Shown piece after piece: positions 4,460 through 63,353 of a stretch of DNA of 64,000 nucleotides. The stretch comes from Chiloscyllium plagiosum (lineage: Eukaryota). Position numbers and translations under genes: made by a program. Every line of letters begins with the position of its first letter. Position 1 is the first letter of the stretch. The stretch covers positions 87,911,872 to 87,975,871 of the forward strand of contig NC_057712.1 in assembly GCF_004010195.1 (NCBI RefSeq), given 5' to 3'. The notes under the pieces are model-generated. The model was not told where the DNA came from. It made no database searches and saw only the letters and a list, made by a program, of their open reading frames with translations.

Positions 4460-5400
4460 CTTGCACAAAAAAATGGAAAGTTCTAATCCTACATTTAAAT
4501 TTCAATGTAGTTAAGTATGAAGTTATCCACTTTGGACCTAAAAAGGGCAGAGGAGAAAGTGAGGACTGCAGATGCTGTAGATCAGAGCTGGAAAAGTGCA
4601 GCAGGTCAGGCAGCATCCAAGGAGCAGGAGAATCGACGTTTCGGATATGAGCTCTTCTTCAGGAATCCTGAAGGGATTCGTGAAGAAGGGCTCATGCCCG
4701 AAACATCGATTCTCCTGCTCCTTGGATGCTACCTGACCAGCTGTGCTTTTCCAGCAACACATTTTCAGCTCTAAAAAGGGCAGAGCAAGGTACTTTCAAA
4801 ATAGTAAATAACTAGAGATAGTTGTGTTCCAAAGAGAGGTAGTGGTCCAGCTACATAAGTCATTAAAATGTACTGAACAAATAGTGAAACTAATGCAAAA
4901 GATTAATGGAATACCAGCTGTTCTATCCCAAGTGTTCTGGGCCACCACACCTTATAAAGGATATATTGGCCTTGAGTGGCATGAATACTACCTGACTCAA
5001 AGTGTTCTATTACGAAGCATGATTCCACAAACTAGCATTGCACTCTCTGTATTTTAAAATATTAAGTGTGATTTAATCAAAGTTGTCAAGGTATTAAGAG
5101 AACAGATAGAGCAAATGGAAGCAACTTTTAATTGTTGGGAGTCTAAGACATAGTCCAAGTATTGGAACCAAACCTTTCAGGCCTGAAATTAGGAAACACT
5201 TCGAAAGTCTGGCACTCTCTTGCAAAGAGCTATCGATGTTGGACCAGTTGAAAGTTTGAAATCTAAAATTAATAGTTCTTTATTATTGATTTAAATGCAG
5301 GGATAGGAGGTATGGGAAAATACATAGAGTTCAGTCAGAGATTAGACATGACCCTATTGAATGGTGGAACATGTTCAAAAGTTACATGGTCAACTCCTAT
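4460..5400 (+). mobile_element. Degenerate CR1 3' fragment, interrupted by a palindromic element
   Basis: FNVVKYEVIHFG resembles CR1 'FN..KCEV.HFG'. Downstream ...gtgatttaatcaaagtt... and 3'UTR-like sequence. Confidence 0.7.
4553..4770. mobile_element. Short palindromic PLE-derived element (hammerhead family A), both cores decayed
   Basis: Inverted arms meeting at ggaatcc..gattc. 15-bp TSD ctaaaaagggcagag at 4538-4552 and 4771-4785. Confidence 0.85.
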
Positions 5401-5463
5401 TGCAACCTCCCTGAGTTCCTGTGTAAGTAATATCAAGCATGAATTGTGTATCTGCAATCTTAA

Positions 5464-5615
5464 AGGAGAAAGTCTGGCACTCTCTTGCAAAGAGCTATCG
5501 ATGTTGGACCAGTTGGATCATTCCTGAAGAAGGGCATGTGCCCGAAACGTCGAATCTTCTGTTCCCTAGATGCTGCCTGACCTGCTGTGCTGTTCCAGCA
5601 ATAAAGTTTCAACAC
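5464..5615 (+). mobile_element. Chimeric family-A insertion with captured local DNA
   Basis: 15-bp TSD tatctgcaatcttaa at 5449-5463 and 5616-5630. 5468-5515 copies 5203-5250. It is followed by one hammerhead-bearing arm. Confidence 0.8.
5520..5555 (+). ncRNA. Minimal type-I hammerhead ribozyme motif
   Basis: ATTC-CTGAAGA-A-GGGC-ATGT-GCCC-GAA-ACGT-C-GAAT. Stem I ATTC/GAAT, core CUGANGA and GAAA, stem II GGGC/GCCC, palindromic stem III, GUC triplet. Confidence 0.75.
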
Positions 5616-6138
5616 TATCTGCAATCTTAAGCACAGCTTTAAAAACTGCTTTGCCTGAAGTTGGTGCCATCTGCTAAACTGTTCAATTCTCAGCTCAAAA
5701 TAATAAGAAAGGCGTATTTCTAACAATTATTAGCATCCACTCAAGGAAGCTTTAGAAATTAAATAAGTTTTAAATAAGTATAGACATTAGGAGAGTTCTA
5801 GAAAAGCTGTTTGTGTGTTGAAATTGTTTTATTTAATCAGAAACAAACATTCAATGAAGGAAGTATATTTTTAAGCCATTGACAATTATTTAAAATCAGC
5901 TTACTTGCGACTCGGCACGAAAATTATTTTTGCTACAAATTCATTTTCAGCTTCATTAATAAAAATGCAACAGCTTAGTGATACCAATTGCATTTTTTAA
6001 AGCAAATAAAAATAATAATATTCTATTACATTGATCATGCCTCATGAAAGGTGTGATTGTGATAATGTCAATGAGTTTTTATAAAAGGCTGAACCACAAC
6101 AGCACTTTGGATAACTTTTGCTATTTCAAACATAATTA

Positions 6139-6420
6139 GGCCAGCACATTGGCTCAGTGGTTAGCACAGCTGCCTCACAGTATCAGGGACCCCGGCTCAG
6201 TTGCACCCTCAGGCAACAGTCTGTGTGGAGTTTGCACACTCTCCCTGTGTCTGTGTGGATTTCCTCCCATAGTCCAAAGATGTGCAGTTTGGGTGAAAAA
6301 ACCACAGGAAGTGCAGGGATAGGGTTCATATGATGAGTGTGGGTTGGATGCTTTGCAGAGAGCTAATTTGGACTTGATGGATCAAATGGATTGCTTCTAC
6401 ACTGTAGGGATTTTCTGATT
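6139..6420 (+). mobile_element. HE1-type tRNA-derived V-SINE (diverged)
   Basis: tggctcagtggttagcac head, gtctgtgtggagtttgcac.ttctccc V-domain, tccaaagatgtgcag, CR1-like tail. Confidence 0.85.
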
Positions 6421-7550
6421 AGTATTACAAGGTTACTTATCAGCTGACTTGATATTCTACAGGTATCTCTGCTCCATCAGAATCTGGAAAACAAAATTCC
6501 CTTTAACTGTAAAATTGTCTCCACTCATTAACTCTAACAGCAAATCACCAACAGCTTTGAACCCATTAAATCGATAAAATAATGGATAGTGCAAATAAAA
6601 ACAGACTATCTGCATTAAGCAACTGATGCTTTAAATGCAAAATGCACAAGCTTTATGCATGATTACACCATCTTTTTTTCTCAGAGTAGTGCACGAAGAA
6701 CAGATTTCATGAAAAAAAACCTGGATAAATATGTATGAAGACGACAGCTGAATGCCAACTTATCTGCTCTATCCTCAAGTGCCGAATGAGTTGCTGAATG
6801 ATTTCAGCATTTTCTGCTTTTCTCTCAGATGAATAGAATTTGCAGTTTATGTATTTTCTGCATGTATATCATATTCAAATGGAATTACTTGTTATCATGG
6901 TCATCCCATAATCTAGAAATAATGATGGGCACAGAGATACTGAGACCACACATATTGAGTGCACACAGATTAACCACTCAAGGAGAAGCAATGCATATTA
7001 AATGTTTTGGTCGATATTGTGAAATTGTGCAGAATTATTTTTGGGGTGCAAGAGGAATCTTGACCCAGCTTCCTTGAGATTAAATAAATTAGATACAGAT
7101 GACATTGCACATGTAACAGTGGGAAAGATTGCCTTGTTCAAATGAACCTGCTCTATTTCATACTTTGCGACCTCATAAGAAAATTGAGCTTGAGTAGCTC
7201 CAGCAGGGAACTTGCAGTAAGTAATCATGGAATGAGATAAGCCTAGGGAACACACATAAATTACAGGAAAAAATATCTTAAAAAGCAATGATATTATCTG
7301 AATATCACAGTTGGACTAAGACTGAACGCTCGTAATGCTATTTTTAACAGACATCAAACTAAATCATTTTAGTATCATTAAGGATGTTTCAGCATCATTG
7401 ACCTGAGGGGCAATAGATTTTGAAGTATTCTTTTATAATAAGATTTTACTTCAAGACCATTCTGCCCCCAGATGTACAAGAAAAAGAGGAAGGTGTGATG
7501 AGACAAAAAAGAACAAGACATACCATCAAAGGCTGGGTTCAGCCTAAGAA

Positions 7551-7868
7551 ATTAGATTAGATTACTTACAGTGTGGAAACAGGCCCTTCGGCCCAACAAG
7601 TCCACACCGACCCGCCGAAGCGCAACCCACCCAGACCCATTCCCCTACATTTACCCCTGCACCTAACACTACGGGCAATTTAGCATGGCCAATTCACCTA
7701 ACCTGCACATTTTTCGACAGTGGGAGGAAACCGGAGCACCCGGAGAAAACCCACGCAGACACAGGGAGAATGTGCAAACTCCACACAGTCAGTCGCCCGA
7801 GGCGGGAATTGAACCCGGGTCTCTGGTGCTGTGAGGCAGCAGTGCTAACCACCGTGCCACCGTGCCAC
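7551..7868 (-). mobile_element. HE1 SINE, young, full length
   Basis: Reverse complement has A/B boxes (tggcacggtggttagc; ggttcaattcc), V-domain and an (atcta)n tail. Near-identical to 34762-35061 and 45015-45340. Confidence 0.93.
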
Positions 7869-8359: not shown

Positions 8360-9085
8360 TTCGTACAGGGCAAACCATGTATAACTAAGTTTAAAATTCC
8401 TAAGCTTGAGTTATTTTGATGAGGTAACAGAGGGTTTAACGTGGCTACCACGTGTTGGTGTGGCAAATATGAACTTTCAAATCACACTTAATGAAGTAAC
8501 GCTTAAAGGATTGGTCAGAAAAGTTAGAACCATGAGAATAAAAATGATAATGATAGCATGAATATGATGTTGGCTGAATAGTAAGGAACAGAGAAAAATG
8601 GTGAACAGTTGCCTTTCAGACTGGATCAACACATATAGAAGAAACTCCCCCAGGATCAGCATTAGGAACATTGCTCGTCCTGATGTATGTTAATGACCTA
8701 GTTTGGGTTTTGTATGGCATAATTACAAAATTTGGGGATAACACTTAACTCAGAATTATTGTAAATTACAAGGAGTATATTGGTAGACTTCAGGAAGACA
8801 TAGACTTACTGGTGGAATGAAGAGAAAGTGAGGACTGCAGATGCTGGAGATCAGAGCTGAAAATGTGTTGCTGGAAAAGCGCAGCAGGTCAGGCTGCATC
8901 ATTACTGGTGGAATGGACAGACATGTTGTAAATTAAACTTAGTGCGGAGAAATGTGAATTGATTCATTTTGGTAGGAAGAATGAGAGAGGAAATATAAAA
9001 GATATAATTCTAAAGGGGTGCAGAAGCAGAGGAATTTGAGGATATATGTGTTCAAGTTATTGAAGATTGTCGGGCACTTTGAGAA
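8360..9085 (+). mobile_element. Degenerate CR1 RT fragment
   Basis: ccccaggatcagcattagga (PQGS.LG), atgtatgttaatgaccta (YVNDL), cttcaggaagacatagac (LQEDID). Confidence 0.75.
8820..8901. mobile_element. Truncated family-A element (terminal arm only)
   Basis: gagaaagtgaggactgcagatgctggagatcagagctgaaaatgtgttgctgg.... 14-bp TSD ttactggtggaatg at 8806-8819 and 8902-8915. Confidence 0.85.
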
Positions 9086-9097
9086 AACAGTTTTACC

Positions 9098-9250
9098 CCA
9101 CCCCTCACAACCGCAACAAGGATAGAATCCCCTGGTCCTTGCATTCCACCCCACTAATCTCCAAATCCAGCACATCATCCTCCATCATCTACAGTCAGAC
9201 CTCACCACTAAAAATACGTTTCCCTCCTGACCCCTATCTGCATTTCATAG
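9098..9250 (+). mobile_element. Small Penelope ORF fragment (RT-EN linker)
   Basis: With one frameshift reads NKDRIP(L)VLAFHPTNLQIQHIIL, resembling the PLE 'RVPLVLTYHP' motif. Confidence 0.5.
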
Positions 9251-11284
9251 GGACTGAAATATGTCCTCTTCACAACATACTTTCCTACTGTCTCTGTTAC
9301 CAGCAAACTTAACAACGGTAAGTTACGTCCTTTCATCCAAGTCTGTTAATTAAATTGCATAAATCGTTACTTGTTGCATTTGTTACATCAGAAAATGATC
9401 CAGTTATGTCCACCAACTGTTTTCTGTTAGCTCGCCAATCTCCTATCAATGTCAATATTTTACTCACCACACTGCGAACATTTTGCTTTCTACATTAACC
9501 TTAGATATTATGTCAATTAAGACAGAGTGAGTGTTTACAGTCTCCAATGGCTGGTGATGGTGCAATAGTGACAATACGTTATTTTAACAGGGTACTCTGT
9601 GATTAAGTTTCTTTTGATGCAGCACACATGGTACTACATGCAGAGTGGTGTTTGAGGTCTTGAAAGTCTTGGCATTTGTGAACCATCTCCTCAATAGGGC
9701 TGAAATGATCTAGGCATCCTTGCCCCCTGTTGGCTCTGCTCTGTTCCCTTCTTCCATGTGTCACCTCATTCTGTAAGAGAAAGAGAAGAATCTCGGTGAT
9801 GTAACATATTTGGGTGATGTGCCCGTCACAGCTGAATAACTGGAGGTATGTAGAAACTGCAAGGAGCTGGCCACGAAGTTAACATCATTAGAGTGTGTGC
9901 AAATTATGTGGAATATCTAAATATTAGGTATGAGTGTAAAATGTGAGAAACAGCAGATGGGAGTGATGATGCAGTTATTAAAATGAAAGGCTGGTAGGGC
10001 AGTAGGCATGAGATATTGTTGGAAGGTGGATTTACTGACCATGACCACCTTCTCAAGGGCATTAGATTTATTGTACCCCAACTGTCAAGCTCTTGTTCCA
10101 AACTATTGGAATTGATCTTCTGGGTCGCCTGATCACAATCCTATTGAGGGATATTTGGAAAGAGCTACTGGCCCTTGTAAATCACTGGCCTTTCTGTCCA
10201 TCCACCTACAAAGCCAACAGTGTCAACGTGCCTGTTACCTTGGAGTCAGTCTCTGCCCTGCTGCACCATTTTCCTGGTATGGAATTGCAGTAGTCATTTT
10301 CAGAATGTTATAATCATGCTGGATGGATGCACCATCACTCCAGTCCCATAAAAATACTTTCTCCGCTTACCAAAATGACCAGGTAAATATCTCAGATTTA
10401 AATAACATATCTATCAATCAGGTTTCTTAATATGTTCAATTATTGGTTGATCAAAACAAAACTTACTTAGTAAAGATGAAATAATGGGTTGGCGTACCCA
10501 GTCAGCTTATAGAATTATAATGCTTATTCCTTTAAATTTTCAAAAGCATGCCCACACACACACTTCACGAAGAGAAAAAAAAAGATTTCTGTGTAGTGAT
10601 TGAATTGCTGAAAAACAGAACATTTTTGCTAATGTGTTATTCTTAAAGTCACAAGGATAAAGCACAGAATGCTCCAGAGTCTGTTCTGTTTGTGCCTAGG
10701 CATATGTTTTTGTACACTTAGCTCTGATGTCTTACAGCTTGCTCAGGAAATACAATCATTGAGATGTTTCTTCAACCAATCTTTCAAAAGAACAAATAGA
10801 TTTCATTTTGAGTTCAAGAAGTGGATTTCTTTTCAGAAATGACAGAAATCAGCTAGGTCAACTTGTTCTTAGCAAGGTTTCCTTCACTGGACCAGTTAAA
10901 ACAAGAACCTCTCGAAGCTACTCACTATTTAAAACAGTACCAGGTCGCAAAAGCAAAGAAAGCTTTTGTGGAAAATTTTCCAGTGTCTACAGTAAATTTC
11001 CAATGACATCATTCAAAGAGCTCACTGCAGGTATTTCCATAAAGCTGAAAATAAGTCAGTTTTCCTCAATCCTTCAAAAGTTATGCCACCAAACAATCCT
11101 ACATGCTTGTAATAAGTAGCAGTTACCTGTAACTCTCTGTACCTACCTTGTATGAGGAATGGATTATCTTTAAGAACAGGAGGTTGGCTGTGCCATATGT
11201 TTTGGCACAGTTCTTTGGGTTTTGCTAACCATCAAGGCAGCAAGATGTGCATGCTGCTTAGCTGTCTGTAGAGTAAATGTGACA

Positions 11285-11489
11285 CTGAAAAAGCACAGCA
11301 GGCAGTATTTGAGAAACAGGTGAGCCGATGTTTGGGGCCTAAGCCCTTCATCAGGAATCATTCCTGATAAAGAGTTTATGCCCAAAACGTCAACTCTCCT
11401 GCTCCTCAGATGCTGCTGACCTGCTGTGCTTTTCCAGCACTACACATTTTGACTCTGATCTCCAACATCTACTGTCCTCACTTTCTCCT
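11285..11489. mobile_element. Older palindromic family-A element
   Basis: Centre cccttcatcaggaatcattcctgat; right end ...tcctcactttctcct. Decayed hammerhead cores. Confidence 0.8.
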
Positions 11490-13320: not shown

Positions 13321-13380
13321 TTGTTGGAGAAACTGTTGCATATCATGTATTTTGGCAGGTTTGCATCTTTTGACTTCCAG

Positions 13381-13613
13381 AGCTGGAAATGTGTTGCTGG
13401 AAAAGCGCAGCAGGTCAGGCAGCATCCAGGGAACAGGAGAATCGACGTTTCGGGCATAAGCCCTTCTTCAGCCCTTCTTCTATCATTCCTGAAGAAGGGC
13501 TTATGCCCGAAACGTCGATTCTCCTGTTCCCTGGATGCTGCCTGACCTGCTGCGCTTTTCCAGCAACACATTTCCAGCTCTGATCTCCAGCATCTGCAGA
13601 CCTCACTTTCTCC
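13381..13613. mobile_element. Young palindromic family-A element with perfect 94-bp inverted arms
   Basis: 13378-13471 is the exact reverse complement of 13489-13582. 15-bp TSD tcttttgacttccag at 13366-13380 and 13614-13628. Confidence 0.92.
13485..13520 (+). ncRNA. Minimal hammerhead ribozyme motif (a mirror core lies on the - strand at ~13444-13471)
   Basis: ATTC-CTGAAGA-A-GGGC-TTAT-GCCC-GAA-ACGT-C-GATT; stem I is weak (one T-T mismatch). Confidence 0.65.
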
Positions 13614-14767
13614 TCTTTTGACTTCCAGGACAACCATTAAGATGTTCCAGATGGTGCTATTTCGGCTGTTGAGGATTTGTTTGCCACAACGTTTTCTGTT
13701 AAGTATTCCCCTGATGTCTTTATGGTAAAACATCTCAAACACCTCATTTTATGTACTTTAGAAGCTTTTATAATCTTTTGTTTTGTTGCTTCATTGCATT
13801 CTATATTCCCTTTATAAACGTCTTTACTAATTGTCTTCTTGAATCCTCTCATTTATTATTACTTCTAGCAACTTTGTTAATCTTTTCTTTTAATCTTATA
13901 CAATCTTTAACTTCTTTTGTCAGCCAGAGTTGACTAACCATTTTTGAGTATTTTCAGTTTGAAGAAATGTATAGTTGCTGTAAGCCATAAATTGATTCTT
14001 TAATGGCTACACATTGTCTGTGTACATGTCATGACATTTAAGGTATTTTTCCCAAACCACCTCAGCTAATTTGGGCTTCAAGCCATAATAATATCCCTCA
14101 TCCAAATTTAACATTTCAGATTGAATTACCTAACTTTCAAACAGAAATGTAAAATTCTATCATGCGATAGTCATTCTCCTGAAAGATTTTTTTGCAATAT
14201 CATTAATTAGCTCTTCCACATTACATATTACTCGACATACAGTAGCCTATTCTCCAGTTGATTCCTCAAAATACTGCTCTCGAAAACTATCCCTGGCATA
14301 CTCCAGAAAATCTTCCTCCACTGCTTTTTAGCTTACTTGGTTGACATGGTCTGTACTCAGATTGAAGTCACCCATGATTACAGTTTTGCCCATGCCATAT
14401 GCTTCTCTCATTTCCTGATTAATACCAGGCCCACATTATCATTCCTACTCAATAGCCAACAGCTACCTCCAACCAATGTCTACTGCCATTGTTGTTTCTT
14501 AGTTCCAGCAAAACAGATTCCAAAAATTGTTCTTTTGATCTTCTCCTTCTAATGCAATGATCTCAATTTTTTTTAAGTGCACTCCACCTCTTTTTCTTTC
14601 CTGCTTGTCTTTCTAGCTGTTGAATATTCTTGACTATTCAGATTCTAGTCCTGTTCACCATGGGGCAATAATATCCAATTATTTTTATTTGTGTCTTTAG
14701 ACCATCCACATTGCTGTGAATGTTTTATGAATTCACGTAGAGTGTGATGAGTCTTTTTATTTGATTT

Positions 14768-22471: not shown

Positions 22472-22595
22472 AGGCAAAAGTGAGGACTGCAGATGCCTCC
22501 ATTCCTGATGAAGGGCTTTTGCCTGAAAAGTCGATTTTCCTGCTCCTCAGATGCTGCCTGGCCTGCTGTGCTTTTCCAGCACCACTCTAATCTAG
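22472..22595. mobile_element. Family-A-related short element with decayed hammerhead
   Basis: aggcaaaagtgaggactgcagatgc joined to attcctgatgaagggcttttgcctgaaaagtcgatt.... 20-bp TSD acccataaccataaacaggc at 22452-22471 and 22596-22615. Confidence 0.85.
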
Positions 22596-22620
22596 ACCCA
22601 TAACCATAAACAGGCCAGTA

Positions 22621-32799: not shown

Positions 32800-32931
32800 G
32801 AGGAGAAAGTGAGGTCTGCAGATGCTGGAGATCAGAGCTGAAAATGTGTTGCTGGAAAAGCGCAGCAGGTCAGGCAGCATCCAGGCAACAGGAGAATCGA
32901 CGTTTCGGGCATAAGCCCTTCTTCAGGAATC
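32800..32931 (-). mobile_element. Young single-arm family-A element with intact hammerhead core on the - strand (32894-32931)
   Basis: Minus strand GATTC-CTGAAGA-A-GGGC-TTAT-GCCC-GAA-ACGT-C-GATTC. cattagtt is duplicated at 32783-32790 and 32931-32938. Confidence 0.85.
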
Positions 32932-36379: not shown

Positions 36380-37545
36380 ATGAGCAGATAGGTAAGAGCC
36401 TATGGGACCAAAGGAAATTTGTTTATTTGGATCCAGGGTTATTTGAGTGGCAAGAAGCAGGGGTAATATTTGAGGAGTGTTTTGGTGATTGGAAGCCTGT
36501 GTCTAGTGCTGTTCCTCAGGGATCAGTTTTGGGTTTTCTGCTGTTTGCGGTACATATAAATGATTTAGACTTGAATATATGAGGTTCTGGATTAGTGGTG
36601 CTGGAAGAGCACAGCAGTTCAGGCAGCATCCAAGGAGCAGTGAAATCGACGTCTCGGGCAAAAGCCTTTCACGTCGATTTCGCTGCTCCTTGGATGCTGC
36701 CTGAATTGCTGTGCTCTTCCATCACCACTAATCCAGAATCTGGTTTCCAGCATCTGCATCATTGTTTTTACCTCGTTTTTACCTTGAATATATGAGGGCT
36801 GACCAGTAAGTTCACAAATGACATGACAATTTATGGATGGTAAATAGTGAGGAAGGTAGTGTTGATGTTCACTGGTCCCTTAAGGTAGCAGGACAGGTAG
36901 TTAAGGTGGTTAAGAAGAAATATGGGATACTTACCTTTATTAGATGAGGCATAGATTTTAAGAGCAGGGAGACAATGTGGGAACTGTAAAAAAATATTGG
37001 TTAGGCCACAGCTAGAGTATTGTGTGCAGTTCTGAATTCCACATTATGGAAGGGATATGATTGCACTGGAGACGTTGCCGAGGAGATTTATCAAGATATG
37101 ACCTGGGTGGCAGAGTTTCAGTTATGAAGAGATTCGATAGACTGGGATTCTTTTCTTTGGAGCAGAGGAAACTAAGTGGGGGGCACAATTGAGATACACA
37201 AAATTATGGGAGGCATAGGTAGGAAGAAACTTGTCCCTTTGGAGGGATAAATGACCACAGATTTAAAGCATGGAAGGGGCAGGAGATTTAGAGGGGGTGT
37301 GAGAAAAATATTTTTCACCCAGAAGAAGGTGGAATCTGGTGGTCACTGCCTAAGAGAGTGGTGGAGGCAAAAACCTTCACAACATTTAAGAAGCATTTAG
37401 ATGTACACTTGCAATATTAAGATATACAAGGCTATGGGCCAGATGCTGGAAAATGGGATCAGAACAGTTGGAGCTTGTTTTTGACCAGCTCAGGTTTGAT
37501 GAGCTCTAGGGCTTTTCTCTGTGATGGAGAGACTGTAACTGTATA
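36380..37545 (+). mobile_element. CR1 RT and 3' fragment, interrupted
   Basis: ORF 36337: WKPVSSAVPQGSVLGFLLFAVHINDLD. It continues after the insertion (SKF..D, LVRPQLEYCVQF). Confidence 0.88.
36585..36782. mobile_element. Palindromic family-A-related element, centre deleted
   Basis: Arms ttctggattagtggtgctggaagagcac.../...accactaatccagaa. 15-bp TSD cttgaatatatgagg at 36570-36584 and 36783-36797. A same-subfamily fragment lies at ~33120-33168. Confidence 0.88.
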
Positions 37546-39650: not shown

Positions 39651-42150
39651 CAGAGACTGGTTGTAGTCCCAGAAGTAGCCACCACTCAAACCTGGCGCTG
39701 CTGGGACTGCAGTGCTGTCCTCCTTCCAACATTGTCCAGTACCTCTCTAAGTAAGGATGTCCTCCCCTAATAGGGGACAAAAGTTCATAGAATTCCTAGA
39801 GTGTGAAAATAGGTCAATTTGGCCCAACAAGTCCACACCAACTTTCCGAAGTGCATCCCATCCAGACTCAACACCCCACCCTATTGCTGTACCCCTATTT
39901 TCCCATGACCAATCCACCTAAGCTACACATTGTTTGATTTAGCCTTAACCAATTAAAAGCCAGCTGAAAGTAACTAGGTGTGAGAGAAACAACAGTGAGG
40001 ATGCATTTTATTGAGGGGGTGGATGGGAAATCCTGCAACTTTCAACTACTGTTATCTGTGAAGCAGGATGAGCAAGAGTAAGAAAAAATAGAAATGGGTG
40101 AACAACTATGATGACTTTGTTCACTCCAATTTGATACCTGTTTAAAGAAAAAGAATATTTAATTTTGTAAACATACAGACAGCTTCTAATTGTCACCCAT
40201 TATTAAAGAATTTTAGAGCATGCATCCTTTCTTAACGATACTGGTGAGGCATAGCAAAGGACGGAGTTTATAAACACAGGAACAGATTTCCTTGCGTCAA
40301 TCACAAACCTTCAAATTTAAAGTAATGCAAAACAATGTTACCAGAAATGGGTTGTCTACAAACCTCACAAAACCCAAATTGTCTGGCGGTTTGTACTGTG
40401 ATGGATATCAAGATTCAGGAGCAAACCAAAGCATATACTTCAACTCAGACCACTGGGAGCCCTAATTTTTCCTGCTATAGTTCAATGAAATTCTACATAC
40501 CCCATGCACAATGACAATATAGACTGATGATATTCTTCTCTGTCACGATGTATAAAACCACTGTAGGATGGTACTGAATTTCACTTACATGGCTGGGTAA
40601 TTTATAAGAAGGAAAAATACTTACCAATCAAAATAACTGAAGATAAAAACAAAATGCAGGGTTTGAAAAAAGCAGAAAAACCCAACAACAAAGAAATAGA
40701 CCCATCACGGGTTGAAACCAAACATTTTATTTTAAAATGTAGTGCTTAAATCAAAGACATATAAATAAAACAAAAGCAGGCTTGGGCCAGGTTTAAGTCC
40801 AAAATGCTGAATAAAGGAATGGTGTTGGCTCTGTGTGAAAACCAAAGAACCAGAAAAGATGGAGGGGAATGGGACAAGACCAAAGTAATACATTGAGCAA
40901 AGAACCAAAACTGCGAAAGCTGTGCTGATGGAGAGTGGTAACAAGGGCAGCAAATTTAAAGATATATTTCACATTTATTTTGAAAACAACACAAATTAGA
41001 AAATTCAAAGCACACTTTCTTTTCCAGTTTATGACAACTTAAAAATTATAGAAGGAGCAAAGAACTACAGGTAGTAAAATGTGGCTGAATCATGGAAACT
41101 GAGGGCTGAAGGAAATATTATTCCATTCCCTGGGAAGGGCGAGCAACTATATAGTGATAGTCTGTTGTTTTCTAACAGTGTTGATATTATGAATGGTAAC
41201 AGCATGAAATAAGATTTGTGAAAGGAAAACATGAACACATGCAAACATTTAAATAAAACCAACACGTTTCCCCTTGTCGTATTCACAGCAGGTCAGACAA
41301 TGCACTATTTTATAACAGTAAGGTAGGGACATATCTTTATACTGAATGAAACAGTTAGGACGGAATCTTGCAGGGGTCTGAGCAATATGGGCTATGGTGA
41401 GATTTGCAACAGAATTGGACAAGAATTCCAGTGAGGCCCGTCTTGTTGTCAGGGGACCTTTTATGCTTTTGGCAAACAGCGCAGCACATTTCTCACTTGG
41501 CAGCAATGGGTGACTAATTAAGGGGATTATTTCCGATTAAATGCCTTGTTACAAGCCCAACTCTGTTCTTTCATATGCAGCTTCCTATCTTATTAGCACA
41601 CCAAGCAAATTAGAGAATTCAGCTTGGAAATCAGTCTGGGCACCAGGCAATTTCAGCTTGCAGGCTGCGCTGAAGGATCCCTGTGTTGGCATTGGTTACC
41701 AACATTTCATGGCAGCACCATAAATACTGGCCATATACATCCCACATTCACAAACATATGTGTCAACCTCGAAGAACCCTGGTGACGCATCTTAGATTCA
41801 CTTCTGCAATTTAATGCTGTATCAGAAACTATCATTGAAACACTTCTGCAAGGACACCGTGCATTCATTGTCACAGACTGGGACTGGACCAGGCTGTATG
41901 TCCACCTGATACCTCATTCTCATAGTTCTCAATCACTCTGAGCTTATCTGGACGCTCTCACCATTCATGCCTTGATATAACAATTTTATGCTCATATTAC
42001 TTCTGTTCAGCAGGGACCCAAAGGAAGGAAGCTTGTCAGCAAGCCTTAGTCAGGTCAAGGGAGTCAGTCATTGCACAGGGATTCTTGACACAGGAAGTCA
42101 AGGATAGCCTCTGTTACCAATCCATTGGCTTGGACACAATCATTCAGCTA

Positions 42151-42365
42151 GGAAAAAGTAAGGACTGCAGATGCTGGAGATCAGCGTTGAAAAGCGTGGT
42201 GCTGGAAAAGCACAGCAGGTCAGGCAGCATCCGAGGAACAGGAGAATCTACATTTCGGCATAAGCCCTTCATCAGGATTGACAAAGGGCTGATGAAGGGT
42301 TTATGTCTGAAACATCAACTCTCCTGTTCCTTGGATGCTGCCTGACCTGCCAGCACCACATTTTC
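42151..42365. mobile_element. Palindromic family-A element, decayed cores
   Basis: Arms around cccttcatcagg..ctgatgaaggg. 18-bp TSD gacaca(a/g)tcattcagcta at 42133-42150 and 42366-42383. Confidence 0.85.
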
Positions 42366-42504
42366 GACACAGTCATTCAGCTACTTGTGCAGTCAGGGTC
42401 AGGCTGCTCTCCAATAAAAGAGGTGATTTACTGAATGTTGGGTAACCTACCACCTGTTTTATGCCTTTCTGCCTAATTGGGGATTTTTTTCATTCTAGAC
42501 TAGA

Positions 42505-43462
42505 GAGGTAGAGTCATAGTCATACAGCACAGAAACACTCCCTGCAACTCATCCATGCCTACAAAGCTTCCCAAACTTAATTAATCCCACATTCCTGTAT
42601 TTAGCTCACATCACTCTAAACCTTTTCTATTCATGTCCACATCCAAATGTCTTTTAAATGTTGTAACTGTGCCTGTACCTACCACTTCCTCTGGCAGTTC
42701 ATGCCACATACGAACCACCCTCTGTGTGGAAAAGTTGCCCCTCAGGTCCCTTTTAAATATTTCTCCTCTCACCTTAAAAATATGCCCCCTAGTTTTGGAC
42801 TCCCCCACCACAAGGAAAAGACCTTTGCTATCCACCTTATCTGTGCCCCTCATGACTTTATAAACCTCTGCAAGGCCAAAGAGCCACACAGTCATACCAT
42901 GCCTCAATCTCCTAAGGTCCAGTGAAAAAGGCCTGTCCAGCCTATCCTTATAACTCAAATCCACCCATCCAGGCAACATCCTGCTAAATCTTTTCTGAAC
43001 CCTCTCCATTTTCATAATGTCCTTCCTGTAGCAGTGTGACCAAAACTGGATAAAGTACTCCAAAAGTGGCCTCACCAACATCCCGTACAACTCCAACTTT
43101 ACATCCAAACTCCTATACTCAATGGACTGAGCGTGCTAAATGCCTTCTTAACCATCCTGTTGACCTGTGATGTAGCTTTCAGAGAATTATGTAACTGAAC
43201 CCCTAGGTCTCTCTGTTCAACAACACCACCCTGGGCCCTACCACCATTAACTGTGTAAGCCCAGCGCTCATTTGTTTTACTAAAATATAATACCTCGCAT
43301 TTATCCAAATTAAACTCCATCTGTCACTCCTCAGCCCATTGGCCTAATTGATCAAGATCTCTTTGTAATCTTAGGTAACCTTCTTCCCCGTCAACTATAT
43401 CACCCAGTTTATTGCCATCTGCAAACTTACTAACCATGCCTCCTAAATTCTCATCCAAATCC
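42505..43462 (-). mobile_element. CR1 RT C-terminal and 3' fragment
   Basis: ORFs 43099-43320 (MEFNLDKCEVL) and 42611-43108 (LVRPLLEY..QFWS...TRGH.FKV). Confidence 0.92.
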
Positions 43463-45012: not shown

Positions 45013-45014
45013 AT

Positions 45015-45340
45015 GATTAGATTAGATTAGATTATAGTGTGGAAACAGGCCCTTCGGCCCAACAAGTCCACACCGACCCACCGAAGCGCAACCCACCCAG
45101 ACCCATTCCCCCACATTTACCCCTTCAACTAACACTACGGGCAATTTACCATGGCCAACTCACATAACCTGCACATTTTTTTGGATTGTGGGAGGAAACC
45201 GGAGCACCAGGAGGAAACCCACGCAGACACGGGGAGAATGTGCAAACTCCACACAGAGAGTCACCTGAGGCGGGAATTGAACCCGGGTCTCTGGCGCTGT
45301 GAGGCTGCAGTGCTAACCACTGTGCCACCATGCCGTCCAC
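45015..45340 (-). mobile_element. HE1 SINE, young, full length
   Basis: Near-identical to 7551-7868; (attag)n at the left end. Confidence 0.93.
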
Positions 45341-45357
45341 AAACGTGGGCTCGTCCG

Positions 45358-46060
45358 GGAGAGATGAGCATAGAGATCTCGGTGTCCAGGTACACAGATC
45401 CTTGAAAGTTGCCACCCAGGTTTACAGGATTATTAAGAAGGCATACAGTGTATTAGTTTTTATTAATAGAGGGATCAAGTTCCGGAACTATGAGGTTATG
45501 CTACAGCTGTACAAAACTCTGGTGCGGCCACACTTGGAGTATTGTGTACAGTTCTGGTCACTGCATTATAAGAAGGATGTGGAAGCTTTGGAAGGAGTGC
45601 TGTGGAGATTTACTAGGATGTTGCCTGGTATGGAGGGAAGGCCTTACGAGGAAAGGCTGAGGTACTTGAGGCTGTTTTCGTCAGAGAGAAGAAGGTTGAG
45701 AGGTGACCTAATAGAGACATATAAGATAATCAGAGGGTTAGATAGGGTGGACATGGAGAGCCTTTTTCCAAGTATGGTGACGGTGAGCATGAGGGGGCAT
45801 AGCTTTAAATTGAGGGGTGATAGATATAGGACAGATGTCAGAGGTAGTTTCTTTACTCAGAGAGTAGTAAGGGTATGGAATGCTTTGCCTGCAACAGTAG
45901 TAGATTCGCCAACTTTAAGTACATTTAAGTCCTCATTGGACAAGCATATGGACGTACATAGAATAGTGTAGGTTACATGGGCTTCAGATTGGTATGACAG
46001 GTCGGCGCAACATCGAGGGCCGAAGGGCCTTTACTGCACTGTAAAGTTCTATGTTCTATG
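45358..46060 (+). mobile_element. Young 5'-truncated CR1 with open RT C-terminal frame
   Basis: ORF 45330-45971: RDLGVQVHRSLKVA...LYKTLVRPHLEYCVQFWS...RGHSFKL...FFTQRVVRVWNALP. Tail (gttctat)n. Confidence 0.93.
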
Positions 46061-51004: not shown

Positions 51005-52235
51005 AAGAGTGAAGAACAGTATAGCAGAGGAACTGGCCTTTCAGCCCACCATGACAGCACCAACACATGATACATTTCTCAACTAAAAACCTTTTGGCTC
51101 TACACAGTCTGTGTTCCTCTATTCCCTGCTGATTCATATATCTGTCCAGACACCTCTTAAGGTTGCCTTATATCTACCACCATCATCCCCTCTGGCAGTG
51201 CATTCCAGGCACTTACCTCCTATGGTAAGTGCAAAAAACTTCCTTCTCTCATCCCCTTTAAACTTATACATTAAACCTATGTCCCAAGTAATTGACATTT
51301 CACCAATGGAATAAAGACTCCAACTATTCATTTTTGTCCATATTTCTCATAATATTGTAAACTTCTATCAGGTTGCCCCTCATCTGCTTTAAACCTATGT
51401 CCCAAGTAATTGACATTTCACCAATGGAATAAAGATCCAACTATTCATTTTTGTCCATATTTCTCATAATATTGTAAACTTCTATTAGGTTGCCCCTCAT
51501 CTGCTGACATTTAACTGAAAACAAACCAAGTTTGTCCAATGTCTCCCCTTTAGCTAACAACCTCCAAACCATGAACCATCCTGGGATATCATTTCTGGAC
51601 CCTCTCCAAAGCCACCACATATTTCTGGTAGTGTGGTGATCAGAACAGCACACAATATTCTAGATGTTGCCGAACTAAACTTCTATACGACTACAGCATG
51701 ACTTGCCAATTTTTATATTCTATGCCCTGACTGATGAGGCAATCATGCCATATGCCTTCATGACCACCTTATCAACTTGTGTTGCTACTTTCATGGAACT
51801 GTGGACCTGTATGCCTAGATCCCTCAGTATGTTAATGCTGCCATGGGTTTTGTCACTTACTGTATACTCCCCTCCTGCATTGTACCTTCCAAAATGCATC
51901 ATTTCACATTTGTCCAGATTAAACTCTATCTGCCATTTATTGGGACAACTGTCCAGCCTATCTATATCCGGTTGTATCCTCTGGCAATCCTCCTTCCTAT
52001 CCACGGCTCCACCAATCCTTGTGTGGTCCACAAACTTACTGATCAGACCATCTATATTCTCCTCTAAGATACTTATATAGTTAACAAACAACAGGAGTGC
52101 CAGCAGTGATCCTTATGGAAGAACATTGGTCATAGATCTCCAGTCAGAAAAATACCTCTCCACTGCTACTTTGTGTCTTCTATGACTAAGCCAGTTCTCT
52201 ATCCAATCTACCAGCTCAGCAGACCTTATGTGACT
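51005..52235 (-). mobile_element. CR1 RT and 3' fragment with internal 118-bp tandem duplication (51271-51505)
   Basis: ORF 51720-52091: LISKFVDHTRIGGAVD..DCQRIQ.DIDRL...FNLDKCEMMHFG. Confidence 0.9.
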
Positions 52236-56537: not shown

Positions 56538-57440
56538 CATTATTGTTAATAGTTTTTTATTATAGATTTATTTCATTAATTTTGTTTGAATTTCTCAGCT
56601 ACTGTGTTGAGATTTGAACTCACGACTCCAGTTCGATCAATACAAGCTTCAATCACATACCCACTCCTCATCTTGTACTTACCTATCCAGTTGTGAGTGT
56701 TAAAACAAGGAACTCAGTCAGGTCTCACAGCTGGGAATTTAAGAGTCAGATGTGCATCAGTCAATTCAATGAAATGTCCATATCACAAGATGCCCCACTA
56801 TCTGAATATGATAGAAGATCACTCCAATATTTGAGTTATCTGTGTCAAATAATCAAGTATGACAGGAGCCCTCAAGCTATAAATATGATGACCAATCTAT
56901 GTTCACAGGATATGCTTTAATCATGTCTTCATAAACCATAGAATATGTCTTTGTAAGCACACAGAATACAGTACAAGAATCATTGAGTCGATACAGAGCT
57001 TATGATTGAAAAGGTGATGGTTTAACAATGCAGTACCTGTGAGAAGATAAAAGGAAAAACACTATCATGTATCTTTAGCCCGTAGAATTTAATCAAACTC
57101 TTAAAGTACCAAAGGAAGTTCCTGCCTGGAGAATTTTGAGGTAAAAACTTAACCCTGTCAAGCTCAGAAAACTATTAGCAGATAGTTGTTGCATGCATAC
57201 ACCCTGCTGAATTTGACTTTCCATTGATGCCTCTGGGTCACTTTTTATACCTGTGCCAAAGATAAATTACTCCTTCCAAATTAATAAAATATTTTTCCAT
57301 TTCTTCCTATTTCTTCTCTACAATTTTCCTTGGATCACTTCAATGTAATAATGGTGACCCTGTGATTACTTCATTATTTATGGCAACACAGGACAGTCGT
57401 AAAATATACTTTCTTGTTTTGTTATTAAGCCACTTCAGCG

Positions 57441-59087
57441 TTACAGAGTCATAGAGTCATAGAGATGTACAGCATGGAAACAGACCCTTCGGTCCAACTC
57501 ATCTATGCCGACCAGATATCCCAACCCAATCTGGTCCCACCTGCCAGCTCCCGGCCCATATCCCTCCAAACCCTTCCTATTCATATACCCATCCAAATGC
57601 CTTTTAAATGTTACAATTGTACCAGCCTGCATCACTTCCTCTGACAGCTCATTCCATATTCGTACCACCCTCTTTGTGCAAAACTTGCCCCTTAGGTCTC
57701 TTTTGTATCTTTCCCCTCTCACCCTAAACCTATGCCCTCTAGTTCTGGACTCCTCGACCCCAGGGAAAAGACTTTGTCAATTTACCCTGTCTATGCCCCT
57801 CATAATTTTGTAAACCTCTGTAAGGTCACCCCTCAGTCTCCGACACTCCAGGGAAAATACCCCCAGCCTGTTCAGCCTCTCCCTATAGTTCGAATCCTCC
57901 AACCCTGGCAACATCCTTGTAAATCTTTTCTGAATCCTTTTGAGTTTCACAACATCTTTCTGAAAGGAAGGAGTCCAGAATTGCATGCAATATTCCAACA
58001 GTGGCCAAACCAATGCCCTGTACAGCCGCAACATGACCTCTCAACTCCTGTACTCAATACTCTGACCAATTAAAAAAAAGCATACCAAACACCTTCTTCA
58101 CTATCCTGTTTATCTGCGATTCCACTTTCAAGGAGCTATGAACCTGCACTCTAAGGTGTCTTTGTTCAGCAACACTCCCTCGGACCTTACCATTAAGTGT
58201 ATAAGTCCTGCTAAGATTTGCTTTCCCAAAGTGCAGCACCTCACATTTATCTGAATTAACCTCCACCTGCCACTTCTCAGCCCATTGGCCCATTTGGTCA
58301 AGATCCTGTTGAATCTGAGGTAATCCTCTTCGCTATCTACTACACCTCCAATTTTGGCGTCATCCGCAAACTTACTAACTGTACCCCTTTTGCTCGCATC
58401 CAAATCATTTATGTAAATGACAAAAAGTAGAGGGCCCAGCACCGATCCTTGTGTCACTCCACTGGTCCAGTCTGAAAAATAACCCTCCACTACCACCCTC
58501 TGTCTTCTACCTTTGAGTCAGTTCTGTATCCAAATGGCGAGTTCTCCCTGTATTCCGTGAGATCTAACCTTGCTAAACTAGTCTCCCATGGGGAACCTTG
58601 TCAAATGCCTTACTGAAGTCCATATAGATCACATCTACTGCTCTGCCCTCATCAATCCTCTTTGTTACTTCTTCAAAAAACTCAATCAAGTTTTGAGACA
58701 TGATTTCCCACGCACAATGCCATGTTGACTATCCCTAATCAGTCCTTGCCTTTCCAAATACATGTGTATCCTGTCCCTCAGGACTTGCTGATCTTTGAGG
58801 GGCCCTATTCTCTCCCTAGTTACCCTTTTGTCCTTAATGTATTTGTAGAAACCCTTTGGATTCTCCTTAATTCTATTTGCCAAGGCTATCTTATGTCCAT
58901 TTTTTGCCCTCCTGATTTCCCTCTTAAGTATACTCCTACTGTCTTATACTCTTCTGAGGATTCACTCGATCTATCCTGTCTATACCTTACATATGCTTCC
59001 TTCTTTTTCTTAACCAAATCCTCAATTTCTTTAGTCATCCAGCATTCCCTATACCTACCAGTGTTTTCTTTCACCCTGACAGGAATA
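57441..59087 (-). mobile_element. CR1 (HER1-like) ORF2 and 3' fragment with internal deletion near 58785
   Basis: ORFs: GVTQGSVLGPLLFVIYINDLD...SKFADD; IRDSQHGIVRGKSC; IKENPKGFYKYI. (gactctat)n tail. Confidence 0.95.
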
Positions 59088-59088
59088 T

Positions 59089-60020
59089 GCAGGAAAATTG
59101 GAGGTGTCGTGGACAGCGAAGAAGGTTACCTCAAAGTATAATTGGATCTTGATCAGATGGACCAATAGACTGAGGAGTGACAGATGGAGTTTAATTTAGA
59201 TAAATGTGAAGTGTAGCATTTTGTAAAGGCAAATCAGGACAGGACTTGTACACTTGATGGTAAGGTCCTAGGGAGTGTTGTTGAACAAAGAGACCTTGGA
59301 GCACAGGTTCATAGCTCCTTAAAAGTGGAGTCACAGGTAAATAGGATAGTGAAGAAAGGTGTCCATATAGAACATAGAACAAGGTATAGAACAATGTATG
59401 CTTGCCTTTGTTGGTCAGTGCATTGAGTATAGAATTGGGAGGTCATGTTGTAGGTATACAGGACCTTGATTAGGCTGCTGTTGGAATATTGCATGCAATT
59501 CTGGTGTCCCTGCTCTAGGAAAGATGTTGTGAAACTTGAAAGGGATCAGAAAAGATTGACAAAGATGTTGCCAAAGCTGGGGGGTTTGAATTATAGGGAG
59601 AGGCTGAATAGAACTGGGGCTATTTTCCCTGGAGTGTTGAAGGCTGAGCGGTGACCTTATAAAGGTTTTTAAATTCATGAAGGGCATGGATAAGGTAAAC
59701 AGACAAGGTCTTTTTCCCCAGAGTGGGAGAAGCCAAAACTAGAGGCTTTAGGTTTAAGGTGAGAGGGAACCAAAGGGGCAACTTTTTCATACAGAGGGTG
59801 GTGCATGTATGGAATGAGCAGCCAAAGGAAGTGGTGGAGGCTGGTTCAATTCCAACATTTAAAAGGCGCCTGGATGGGTATCTGAATAGAAAGGGATCAG
59901 AGAGGTTGGGGAAATGCTGTCAATTGGAACTTGATTTATTTATTATCTGGTCAATATGGACGTGTTAGACCAACAGGTCTGTTTCCCTGCTGTACATTTC
60001 TATGACTCTATGACTCTGTA
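59089..60020 (+). mobile_element. CR1 (HER1-like) 3' fragment, back-to-back with the previous copy
   Basis: Starts at KIGGVVDSEEG; LLEYCMQFW; tail ctatgactctatgactctgtaa. Confidence 0.93.
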
Positions 60021-61389: not shown

Positions 61390-61676
61390 CAGAGATGCCA
61401 TCTTTCAAATGAAACACTAGACTGTCTCCCTCGCTGTCCTCTCAGATGAACATTAATAATCCCTTGACAATATTTTGAAGACATTTGGCATTATGGCCAG
61501 TATCTACACATCAAACTTACAAATGATCTAATATTATTCCATTGTAGCTGTGGGAACTTGCTGTATGTGCATTGTCTACCACTTATCCATTTATTTCTGC
61601 ATTTCAAAAGTACTTGTCTGCAAAGTACGACTGAACATCCTAAAGCAGTGAAGGGATGCTACATAAATCGAGTTCA
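61390..61676 (+). mobile_element. Ancient Deu-domain SINE relic (SacSINE1/AmnSINE1-like)
   Basis: gccatctttcaaatga..., cattgtagctgtgggaacttgctgt, ttcaaaagtactt and gtgaagggatgctacataaat resemble the Deu domain and L2-like tail. Confidence 0.55.
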
Positions 61677-61864
61677 AACTTGTGTGATTTTTATAATGAG
61701 TGCATAATTTAATAGATTAGTATATACAGGAAAGTTCCTTCCAATCATTTCCATCTGTTAGCAGTGCTGATTGACCACACGAGTCTTACGATGAACTTGA
61801 TGAATGTATCAGATCTGGCTTGAAATTATTAATGGGAATCTCACAGCCTCAGCTGAAGTGAATT

Positions 61865-62252
61865 CTTTGGTTTTCTTTATTTTTGTTCATGGGTCGTGGG
61901 ATGTCACTGGCAAGGCCAGCAGTTGTTGCCCGTCCCTAAATGTCTTGAACTGAGTGCCTTGCGAGACCATTTCAGAGGGTCCACATTGTTAAGGGTTTGA
62001 TATTACAGATAGGCCAGACCAGATAAGAACAGCAGGTTGCTTTCACCGAGGGGAATTAGCAAAATCAAATGGGATTTTTATGACAATGATGATAGTTTCA
62101 TGCCTCCCATTACTGACTAAATCTCAGTTCCAGATTTTATTAATTGAATTCAAATTCCACTAGCTAGCACGGTCGGATTTGAGCCCATGCCCTTACCGGG
62201 TTTGTATGGGTTACTAATCTAGTGGTGTTCCCACAAGGCCACCATCCGCCCT
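61865..62252 (-). mobile_element. Old tRNA-derived SINE; related copy at ~56180-56670
   Basis: gtcactggcaaggccagca.ttgttgccc.tccctaa at the left; ttgaattcaaattcc and ggatttgagcccatg (reverse-complement B box) at the right. Confidence 0.55.
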
Positions 62253-63164
62253 TTTACTGGTTTAGGTATAAACCTAAAAGGAAATGGGGAAACATGTTGC
62301 AATAGCAAGTTGTTATGATTTAAAATGCATTGCCTGACAGGGTGTCAATAGTAGATTCAAAACTGAACTGGATAAATGCCTGAGGTGAGGTGTCTATTTG
62401 CATATTTTGAAATTGCTCCTTAAATGGTTGCAACTGCATCACTGTTCACCTATCCCTTAACTGAATTTGCCAGTTCACTTCACTTTAGCTAGTTCTGCTT
62501 TTGTGCCCTTATAATTGTCCTTGTAATTATAAGTTTAACATGCTAATCCTTGATGTACTCTTCACTCCTTCAAAGTGAATGTAAAATTCAATTATATTGT
62601 GATTGATACTGTCTAGCAATGCCTTCACTAGGAGGTTATTAATTCGTCCCACCTCTTTGCACAATGTCTTGTCGAGTACAGCCTACTCTCCTTTTGACTC
62701 GAGAATGTGGTGTTCTAAAAATATTATCCCAAAACATGCTATGTACATCACATTTAGGCTATTTTTGCCCATCTAATTTTTCCAATCCATATGCAGATCA
62801 AAAACTCACTTGATTTTGTCATTTCTTTCTGACAAGCTCTAATATTTCTTTCTTATTCTCCATCCTCCCATGTGATAGCAGACACGGAGCCTGTTTTGCA
62901 AGTGACTTCTTGTCATTATCATTTCTCATCTCTACCCAAACCACTTCGACATCCTGGTTTCCTGAGCTTAGGTCATCCTTCTCTGTTGTGCTAATACCTG
63001 TTTTCTATTCTTACATGTAGTTTGGGTGTTGCTGACAAGATCAGCATTTGTTGCCCATCCGAATTGCCCTTGAGTGGCTTGATGGCCATAATAAATTAAT
63101 TAAATAACACAACAACCTCCCCACCTTTTCTTCGCTGTCCTTCCCTAAGTGTCATATATCCATA

Positions 63165-63353
63165 AGGCAGAAGTGGGTACTGCAGATGCTGGATATTAGA
63201 GTCAAGGTTAGAGTGGTGCTGGGAAAGCTCAGCAGATCAGGCAGCATCCAAAGAGCAGGAAAATCAAAGGGCCTTTGCCCGAAACGTTGATTTTTCGGCT
63301 CCTTGGATGCTGCCTGACCTGCTGTGCTTTTCCAGCATCACTCTAATCTTGAC
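63165..63353. mobile_element. Palindromic family-A-related element, CTGATGA box deleted
   Basis: aggcagaagtgggtactgcagatgctgg...gaaaatc|aaagggcctttgcccgaaacgttgatt...ccagcatcactctaatcttgac. Confidence 0.82.

What the first reader, a model, noticed from the sequence alone, without database searches (positions are those of the whole stretch)
4538..63353. Prolific short palindromic retroelements built around a hammerhead ribozyme
Seen: at least ten related 80-250 bp insertions (4553, 5464, 8820, 11285, 13381, 22472, 32800, 36585, 42151, 63165). They share one fixed end (aggagaaagtgaggactgcagatgctgg or a variant). Most fold back on themselves. Where the centre is preserved, the fold-back point lies just upstream of CTGA[A/T]GA-A-GGGC-N4-GCCC-GAA-ACGT-C, a type-I hammerhead core. 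They look like MITEs, but flanking duplications are long and variable (15, 15, 14, 15, 20, 15, 18 bp), and the arms and spacers differ per copy. Established: Penelope-like elements carry minimal hammerheads in their terminal repeats and often insert with inversions. Inference: this is a non-coding, ribozyme-bearing, PLE-mobilised family (retrozyme/SINE-like) whose palindrome is rebuilt at each insertion. It could place a ribozyme core on both strands at very high copy number. I cannot tell whether it is already catalogued as a repeat.
Basis: partly seen in the sequence, partly recalled or inferred. Interest (0 to 1): 0.85.

Follow-up and report, generated by a model that had tools for sequence, protein, structure and literature searches.

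The report
Cap-marked Penelope run-off palindromes
These short mirror-image insertions are stump copies of the ribozyme-bearing end of a Penelope-like retrotransposon, and their fixed start point, extra G and one-sided tail suggest that each was likely written from both DNA strands off a capped, uncut RNA, which would explain how this class of element makes its inverted ends.

Summary
The ten insertions are real. They are not a separate SINE or retrozyme. The same 130-nt unit (minimal hammerhead plus 'tail') ends the RT + GIY-YIG ORF of a Penelope-like element (PLE) with a Neptune-type linker in this genome. A 1.22-Mb sample holds 145 insertions per Mb. Pairs are head-to-head (53 against 1 tail-to-tail), 44 of 46 carry the tail on one arm only, and duplications are 13-16 bp in 29 of 35. 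Arms stop sharply 3-8 nt before the hammerhead core. Genome-wide, the base before the stop is G 4,426 times against 2,901 A/T; control position 13 of 100. That fits a reverse-transcribed cap. Likely mechanism: a PLE dimer primes both target strands at two internal RNA sites, both cDNAs run off the capped 5' end, and they are joined head-to-head. No clear trace of ribozyme-cut templates. Inverted ends with a tail are published for PLEs, and this scan noted the family twice on other pieces of this genome. I did not find the cap signature in print.

The parts
4538..4785 (.). Head-to-head insertion, family A: tail arm 4551-4666 (-, -4..+125), tail-less arm 4676-4772 (+, -4..+92), 9-nt filler; both arms have G before -4; 15-bp duplication at 4538 and 4771
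5449..5630 (+). Family B: 10-nt tail stub at 5464 (-), filler, arm from 5518 (+, -6 to about +92) with intact hammerhead core 5524-5551; 15-bp duplication at 5449 and 5616
8806..8915 (-). Single tail arm 8820-8900 (+45..+125), no hammerhead; 14-bp duplication
11275..11489 (.). Older palindrome: tail-less arm (-, -4..+84) and tail arm (+, to +124), one base between the two -4 ends; no duplication found
13366..13628 (.). Young palindrome: tail-less arm 13378-13471 (-, 0..+93), filler, tail arm 13483-13614 (+); cores intact on both strands (C3 at 13489 + and 13471 -); 15-bp duplication; centre unique in the genome
13485..13520 (+). Minimal type I hammerhead: stem I 5' side 13485-13488, CUGAAGA 13489-13495, bulged A, stem II, GAAA, palindromic ACGU, predicted cut after 13516; inferred transcription start at 13485 (-4)
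   Evidence: sequence; architecture as in PMC4209133
22452..22615 (+). Family C: 26-nt tail stub at 22472 (-) joined to arm 22494-22597 (+, -11..+92); the arms do not overlap in element sequence; 20-bp duplication
32801..32931 (-). Single tail arm (-4..+125) preceded by G instead of the element's C; no convincing duplication
36570..36797 (.). Family C palindrome with the centre cut through the core (+4 / +23); 15-bp duplication
42133..42383 (.). Palindrome: tail arm 42150-42281 (-), tail-less arm from 42289 (+); 18-bp duplication, 1 mismatch
63165..63353 (.). Family C palindrome: tail arm stops at +28/+29, tail-less arm 63267-63353 (+6..+92); no duplication found

Best explanation
The insertions are the shortest copies of an autonomous Penelope-like retrotransposon with a Neptune-type linker, likely made when its reverse transcriptase primes on both target strands at two internal sites near the 5' end of the element's capped RNA and runs off that end. 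Steps: (1) shown: the unit is the hammerhead-and-tail end of the pLTR of an RT + GIY-YIG element. (2) Inferred: the RNA starts at -4 (families A/B) or -8 (family C), just 5' of the hammerhead core, and is capped. (3) Inferred from the duplications: the endonuclease nicks the two strands about 15 bp apart. (4) Shown as a pattern, inferred as a mechanism: one strand is primed at about +125 (tail) and the other at about +90. (5) Inferred: each cDNA ends after 95-130 nt at the cap, often gaining a C; the two are joined head-to-head, bluntly, through 1-4 nt microhomologies or with filler, and if only one is kept a single arm results. (6) Longer copies would come from the downstream pLTR of read-through or tandem RNA. 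The ribozyme is carried along uncut in most templates; the short copies are probably dead on arrival.
For: Unit directly 3' of GIY-YIG frames. 893-aa and 749-aa frames with RVT_1 (E 6e-8, 1e-8) then GIY-YIG. L126 is pLTR-ORF-pLTR; in this copy the ORF's first ATG lies about 35 nt after the tail. L033 is a long insertion with the same geometry: inverted pLTR with tail, direct pLTR without, duplication. Orientation 53 head-to-head, 1 tail-to-tail in 199 clusters; 44 of 46 non-edge pairs have exactly one tail, 0 have two (chi-square p 5e-10). Of 138 arms at 85% identity or more, 40 start at -8..-3 and 2 at -50..-13. Base before -4: G 4,426, A+T 2,901, templated C 19,738; control at -7: G in 13 of the first 100 listed, counted by eye. 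Family C, base before -8: G 355, A+T 316. In the first 30 G loci the DNA upstream of the G differs from locus to locus (16 two-arm, 13 one-arm, 1 long copy), and in L194, L197 and L204 the G is absent from the 14-15 bp target duplication. L214/L215 has G before -8 on both arms. In an RNA run the largest listed loose-end pile on the 5' side is at -4 (152 reads). In 19 of 44 pairs the tail-less arm reaches more than 5 nt further 5' than the tail arm, which copying one cDNA cannot give. Anolis Poseidon protein cuts and extends both strands, starts at two internal sites, is predicted to be a dimer, and does not need ribozyme cleavage (PMC11167929). Untemplated G is the accepted mark of a copied cap in L1 and SVA (PMC4859970).
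Against: No RNA shows a start at -4: one search lists no place where many molecules begin (one usable poly-A single-cell run, about 2% read, reads on both strands from embedded copies). The G could come from terminal-transferase C addition at a 5' end defined in another way. Some G are shared with the target or the other arm (7 of the 13 one-arm loci have G next in the target; 3 two-arm loci are ambiguous). PMC11167929 saw no difference in start site between the two strands in vitro. Many -3 starts sit on a TTC/GAA microhomology that also fits cDNA snap-back. Uneven centres could partly be later hairpin deletions. Starts at the predicted ribozyme cut (+28) are 1.5-fold above one control (279 against 183). 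Arm ends come from local alignments, good to a few bases. No intact active copy was shown; many long copies contain assembly gaps.
Confidence: 0.72

Rival explanations
1. The second arm is made by fold-back: one cDNA (or an antisense transcript, as proposed for rotifer Penelope) primes on itself near the hammerhead and is copied back.
For: Junctions on short internal microhomologies (TTC/GAA at -3; stem I GAAT in 7 of 25 loci); arms agree in loop II in 11 of 12 pairs; PMC3846280 (Discussion) reads such palindromes as self-priming on an antisense template.
Against: The tail-less arm ends at +87-92, the same site used by single and long copies; 19 of 44 pairs and the two stub copies (5464, 22472) hold sequence in each arm that the other lacks; G marks the sense 5' end, on both arms in L214/L215. 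Matching arms are also expected if one RNA or one source locus serves both primers.
Confidence: 0.13
2. A separate non-autonomous, retrozyme- or SINE-like family is transcribed from its own short master copies and mobilised in trans by the PLE.
For: 118 of 177 insertions have no sequence 5' of -12; the sharp common start looks like a SINE 5' end; non-LTR retrozymes derive from pLTRs (10.64898/2026.07.22.740005).
Against: Every window variant has an autonomous counterpart; lengths grade into the 3' UTR and ORF; centres are not inherited; copies are dispersed and inverted, not tandem; short copies lack the sequence 3' of the tail (6 hits against 192 for the unit), which the Anolis protein needs (PMC11167929).
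Confidence: 0.07
3. The template is ribozyme-processed (cut or circular) RNA, and the fold-back point reflects ribozyme action.
For: Core invariant and stems covary across PLE families here; starts at +28 exceed one control 279 to 183; circles proposed in PMC4209133.
Against: The main edge is 32 nt upstream of the cut site and keeps the whole core; many +28 hits are stem I microhomology joins or shared bases; a rough correction gives at most about 800 such ends against more than 4,400 G-marked ends in one loop variant alone.
Confidence: 0.05
4. A MITE of a DNA transposon.
For: Short, palindromic, abundant.
Against: Arms unequal by a fixed 35-nt tail; duplications about 15 bp; variable centres; many single arms; the parent codes RT and GIY-YIG, not a transposase.
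Confidence: 0.01

Closest known systems
EN+ Penelope-like elements with inverted pLTR and 'tail' (PMC3846280, PMC8557442), Neptune/Nematis type
   Same: Single RT-GIY-YIG ORF, pLTRs, heavy 5' truncation, head-to-head inverted copy, 30-40 bp tail at one end, target duplication, CX2-5CxxC linker motif.
   Different: Here most copies are only the last 95-130 nt, with a sharp G-marked 5' edge and duplications of about 15 bp (8-10 bp in the rotifer examples read). The papers read give self-priming on antisense RNA or endonuclease resolution as causes.
Poseidon of Anolis (PAc) in vitro (PMC11167929)
   Same: Both strands cut and extended; two internal start sites bracketing the tail, downstream of the hammerhead; ribozyme cleavage not needed.
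   Different: Other clade; its start sites lie inside the ORF, here in the 5' leader (one copy read); no strand difference in start site seen there, near-strict one-each here; caps and inverted products are not discussed in the main text read.
Minimal hammerheads of metazoan PLEs (PMC4209133)
   Same: No real stem III, palindromic 15.2-16.2, bulged base before stem II, short stem I; mostly single motifs from truncated PLEs; pairs on opposite strands 100-700 bp apart noted in Schistosoma.
   Different: No shark in the parts read; the opposite-strand pairs were noted but not explained.
Non-LTR retrozymes (PMC7229834; 10.64898/2026.07.22.740005)
   Same: Short, non-coding, type I hammerhead, pLTR-related.
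   Different: Those are head-to-tail tandem repeats; these are dispersed head-to-head or single copies.
L1 twin priming and cap-derived G (PMC4859970, passages)
   Same: Inversion by priming on both target strands; untemplated G at complete 5' ends.
   Different: L1 primes at the poly-A end and the two parts barely overlap; here both primers start internally and usually copy the same stretch twice.

Membership tests
EN+ Penelope-like element | One ORF with RT then C-terminal GIY-YIG | tested here: met
   L121 and L122: RVT_1 above cut-off, GIY-YIG E 3e-4 (21.2-21.5 bits, just under the 22.6 cut-off); family search over cut-off in the genome
EN+ Penelope-like element | pLTRs flanking the ORF, hammerhead inside | tested here: met
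   L126; unit 3' of GIY-YIG frames
EN+ Penelope-like element | Inverted truncated copy and 30-40 bp tail at one end | tested here: met
EN+ Penelope-like element | RT phylogeny within PLEs | not tested
   No named reference PLE proteins at hand; homologues unnamed
EN+ Penelope-like element | Intron in the 5' region (optional) | tested here: inconclusive
   No GT-AG joint listed; depth over the ORF start was low
Neptune clade | CX2-5CxxC linker motif and CCHH motif | tested here: met
   C-x4-C-x2-C before the GIY motif, two Cys between GIY and YIG in P0001, read by eye; definition from PMC8557442. Nematis shares it
Neptune clade | Placement in Neptune rather than Nematis by tree | not tested
   Vertebrate PLEs were Neptune or Poseidon in 10.64898/2026.07.22.740005
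Minimal type I hammerhead | Conserved CUGANGA and GAAA-N-UH core | tested here: met
   Core columns invariant across families; 86 against 0-3 descriptor hits
Minimal type I hammerhead | Stems I and II covary | tested here: met
   8 of 8 pairs with double changes, 80% cells paired, score 0.67 against 0.30 or less when slid; 14 hand-picked related rows, three misaligned by one column
Minimal type I hammerhead | Self-cleavage as a dimer | not testable with these tools
   Monomer folding gives stem II only, z about 0
Rfam hammerhead families | Model match | tested here: not met
Non-LTR retrozyme | Head-to-tail tandem units each with a hammerhead | tested here: not met
   Of 177 insertions, 106 single and 52 head-to-head; the same-strand clusters were not shown to be unit tandems
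Non-LTR retrozyme | Circular RNA | not testable with these tools
   cannot show it
MITE | Matched terminal inverted repeats, short fixed duplication, transposase partner | tested here: not met

The most novel reading that the evidence does not exclude
About half a million stump copies record the PLE cycle in vivo: one dimer engages one capped sense RNA at two fixed sites, one per target strand, and both cDNAs run off the cap like a strong-stop product. This single rule would explain the inverted pLTR, the one-sided tail and the excess of solo hammerheads in animal genomes. The hammerhead would then act not in shaping the template but as a switch that removes the cap-bearing first 32 nt, for instance to end translation or limit transposition.
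Probability: 0.45. Interest if true: 0.72.

Novelty: new member of a known kind. Interest (0 to 1): 0.5.

Why it matters
How PLEs make head-to-head ends and a one-sided tail, which strand is the template, and what their hammerhead does are stated as open in PMC3846280, PMC8557442 and PMC4209133. This family gives countable in vivo footprints that favour a capped sense template, two-strand priming and an uncut ribozyme, and each can be tested in the existing in vitro system. Practically, these copies can be mistaken for MITEs or miRNA hairpins, and an estimated half million of them put hairpins into host transcripts (reads on both strands). The element type and its inverted-plus-tail layout are already known.

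Tried and rejected
DNA search of the own genome with the unit gave nothing because very common words are skipped; no evidence. Long 'open frames' were mostly N gaps and were dropped. Rfam: no hammerhead. Folding the monomer: not better than shuffles. Run search: no RNA holder listed. Read lay: X20 laid nothing; X19 gave no start or end peak; X1 and X5 are contigs of uncertain kind, with a few joints from the ORF start back to -4 or nearby that may be genomic tandems. Splice-acceptor origin of the -4 edge rejected: no AG before it and no shared upstream exon. Stalling at the ribozyme fold rejected: RT meets stem I from its 3' side, and family C stops at -8 with the same fold. Apparent piles at +31, +38 and +45 are alignment edges of an older family. 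The automatic two-arm classing was unreliable; those loci were read by eye. One arm pair set excluded: 1 of 47 at a stretch edge. Literature searches found no paper on a cap mark or twin priming in PLEs, or on this shark family; the library lacks most subscription papers, Repbase and Dfam could not be searched, and no supplements were read (those of PMC4209133, PMC11167929 and the bioRxiv preprint may bear on prior cataloguing).
Full report
Observation. The 133-nt stretch at window 13482-13614 finds all ten sites and none in 20 shuffled windows. Positions below count from the first C of the hammerhead's CUGA (0). Rfam reports no hammerhead, but a minimal-hammerhead descriptor matches 86 sites in 1.22 Mb against 0-3 in shuffles. 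Across 14 hand-picked motifs from several families in this genome the core is invariant and all 8 stem pairs show double changes.

What it is. The window lies in a 3.56-Gb genome. A GIY-YIG search gave 149 matches among 150 scored of 14,403 candidates, and an RT-region search 150 of 150 scored among 58,265 candidates. The unit follows the GIY-YIG frame after a C-rich 3' UTR of about 250 nt. L121 holds an 893-aa frame and L122 a 749-aa frame, each RT then GIY-YIG; P0001 has the C-x4-C-x2-C linker that marks Neptune and Nematis in PMC8557442. L126 is pLTR-ORF-pLTR. The three sequence variants in the window (A, B, C, my labels) each also end a coding element. The closest named protein relatives are from sharks and rays at 67-76% identity, all 'uncharacterized'. 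So the short elements are the pLTR end of an autonomous PLE.

Population. I sampled a 464-kb block around the window and 80 spaced 10-kb stretches, 1.22 Mb without N. It holds 177 insertions with the unit, 145 per Mb (146 in the spaced stretches alone), about half a million if extrapolated; 118 have nothing 5' of -12. Of 199 clusters 53 are head-to-head and 1 tail-to-tail. Arms end at about +90 or about +125. Of 46 non-edge pairs, 44 have one tail, 2 none, 0 two (expected about 23, 13 and 11 if independent). Duplications were called in 35 of those 46: 13-16 bp in 29, mode 15; the caller found 3 of 200 at random, none over 10 bp. The 47 pairs show 43 different pairs of 5' ends, and the one centre tested occurs once in the genome.

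The 5' edge. Among 138 arms at 85% identity or more, 40 start at -8..-3, 2 at -50..-13 and 18 further up. Short arms often have G where long copies have C. Exact genome counts for one family A variant give, before -4: G 4,426, A or T 2,901, C 19,738. Flanks at 40% GC would give about one G per three A/T. Two bases further up, G is 13 of the first 100 of 2,035 matches. For family C, before -8: G 355, A or T 316. Reading the first 30 G loci shows unrelated DNA or the other arm upstream, with one long copy; in three one-arm loci with full 14-15 bp duplications the G is not in the target, in seven it is shared with the target (one of them a near-duplicate locus). Both start points resemble initiator motifs (recalled, not tested). 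An untemplated G is the accepted mark of a copied cap in L1 and SVA (PMC4859970, passages). The alternative is terminal-transferase addition at an end defined otherwise. RNA reads confirm the edge (152 loose ends at -4) but come from copies embedded in host RNA and show no start peak.

Mechanism. Anolis PLE protein cuts and extends both strands, starts at two internal sites that bracket the tail, needs RNA 3' of them, is predicted to be a dimer and uses uncut RNA (PMC11167929, main text). Applied here: the RNA likely begins just before the hammerhead, the two start sites lie 95 and 130 nt from the cap, and each cDNA runs off. Joining gives the palindrome, with the tail on one side and a 15-bp duplication. 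Fold-back of one cDNA cannot give the 19 of 44 pairs in which each arm has sequence the other lacks, unless later deletions did so, though it may explain some joints on short microhomologies. Starts at the predicted ribozyme cut are 279 against 183 at one control, and many are stem I joins, so cut RNA is at most a minor template. The ribozyme is conserved between families, so it matters to source elements; what it does stays open.

Against known work. Inverted pLTRs with a one-sided tail are typical of PLEs (PMC3846280: passages and Discussion; PMC8557442: passages). Minimal hammerheads from truncated PLEs, with pairs on opposite strands, are in PMC4209133 (parts 1-2 of 4). Non-LTR retrozymes are tandem (PMC7229834: passages; 10.64898/2026.07.22.740005: parts 1-3 of 5), which these are not. 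PMC6155905 was seen as passages only. Eight searches found no report of a cap mark or twin priming in PLEs; supplements, Repbase and Dfam were not seen. Two earlier notes of this scan on other pieces of this genome reach the same identity; a word search for the cap reading found none.

Verdict. Real; a new member of a known kind. The added value is a countable in vivo signature bearing on an open mechanism. Interest 0.5.

Noticed in passing
window 38767-38816 (-) and 38869-39648: A different PLE-like family with its own minimal hammerhead (longer stem II) and an inverted piece; the same end follows a GIY-YIG match in L009.
   Followed up: partly
window 1446-1593, 35165-35361, 35456-35550: Older related family with a variant hammerhead; 35165-35361 is also head-to-head.
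   Followed up: partly
L107:8142-8186, L158:4198-4242, L170:2010-2054 and others: A further abundant minimal-hammerhead family (stem I CAC/GUG, palindrome AGCU), about a dozen copies in 1.22 Mb; parent not traced.
   Followed up: partly
window 19137-19254 and 20320-20437: Perfect 118-nt inverted repeat 1,065 nt apart with no other copy in the 1.22-Mb sample; a recent inversion or an assembly artefact.
   Followed up: partly
window 9096-9272 and 38024-38350: PLE ORF or 3' UTR fragments without the hammerhead unit; 33122-33167 is a lone tail piece.
   Followed up: partly
window 6139-6267, 7587-7868, 34760-34990, 45053-45340: tRNA-like SINE copies resembling elasmobranch HE1 (name recalled); LINE RT fragments at 42500-43400, 45300-45970, 51580-52110, 57440-59900 resemble CR1-like elements (recalled).
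   Followed up: no
L033:795-1434 and joints: Partial tandems in which pLTR plus the ORF start jumps back into the 3' UTR or to about -4, once with a single G between: possible template jumps after run-off.
   Followed up: partly
After sharks and rays (67-76%), the nearest named proteins are from molluscs and echinoderms (44-50%); no other vertebrate is named among the best 120.
   Followed up: no
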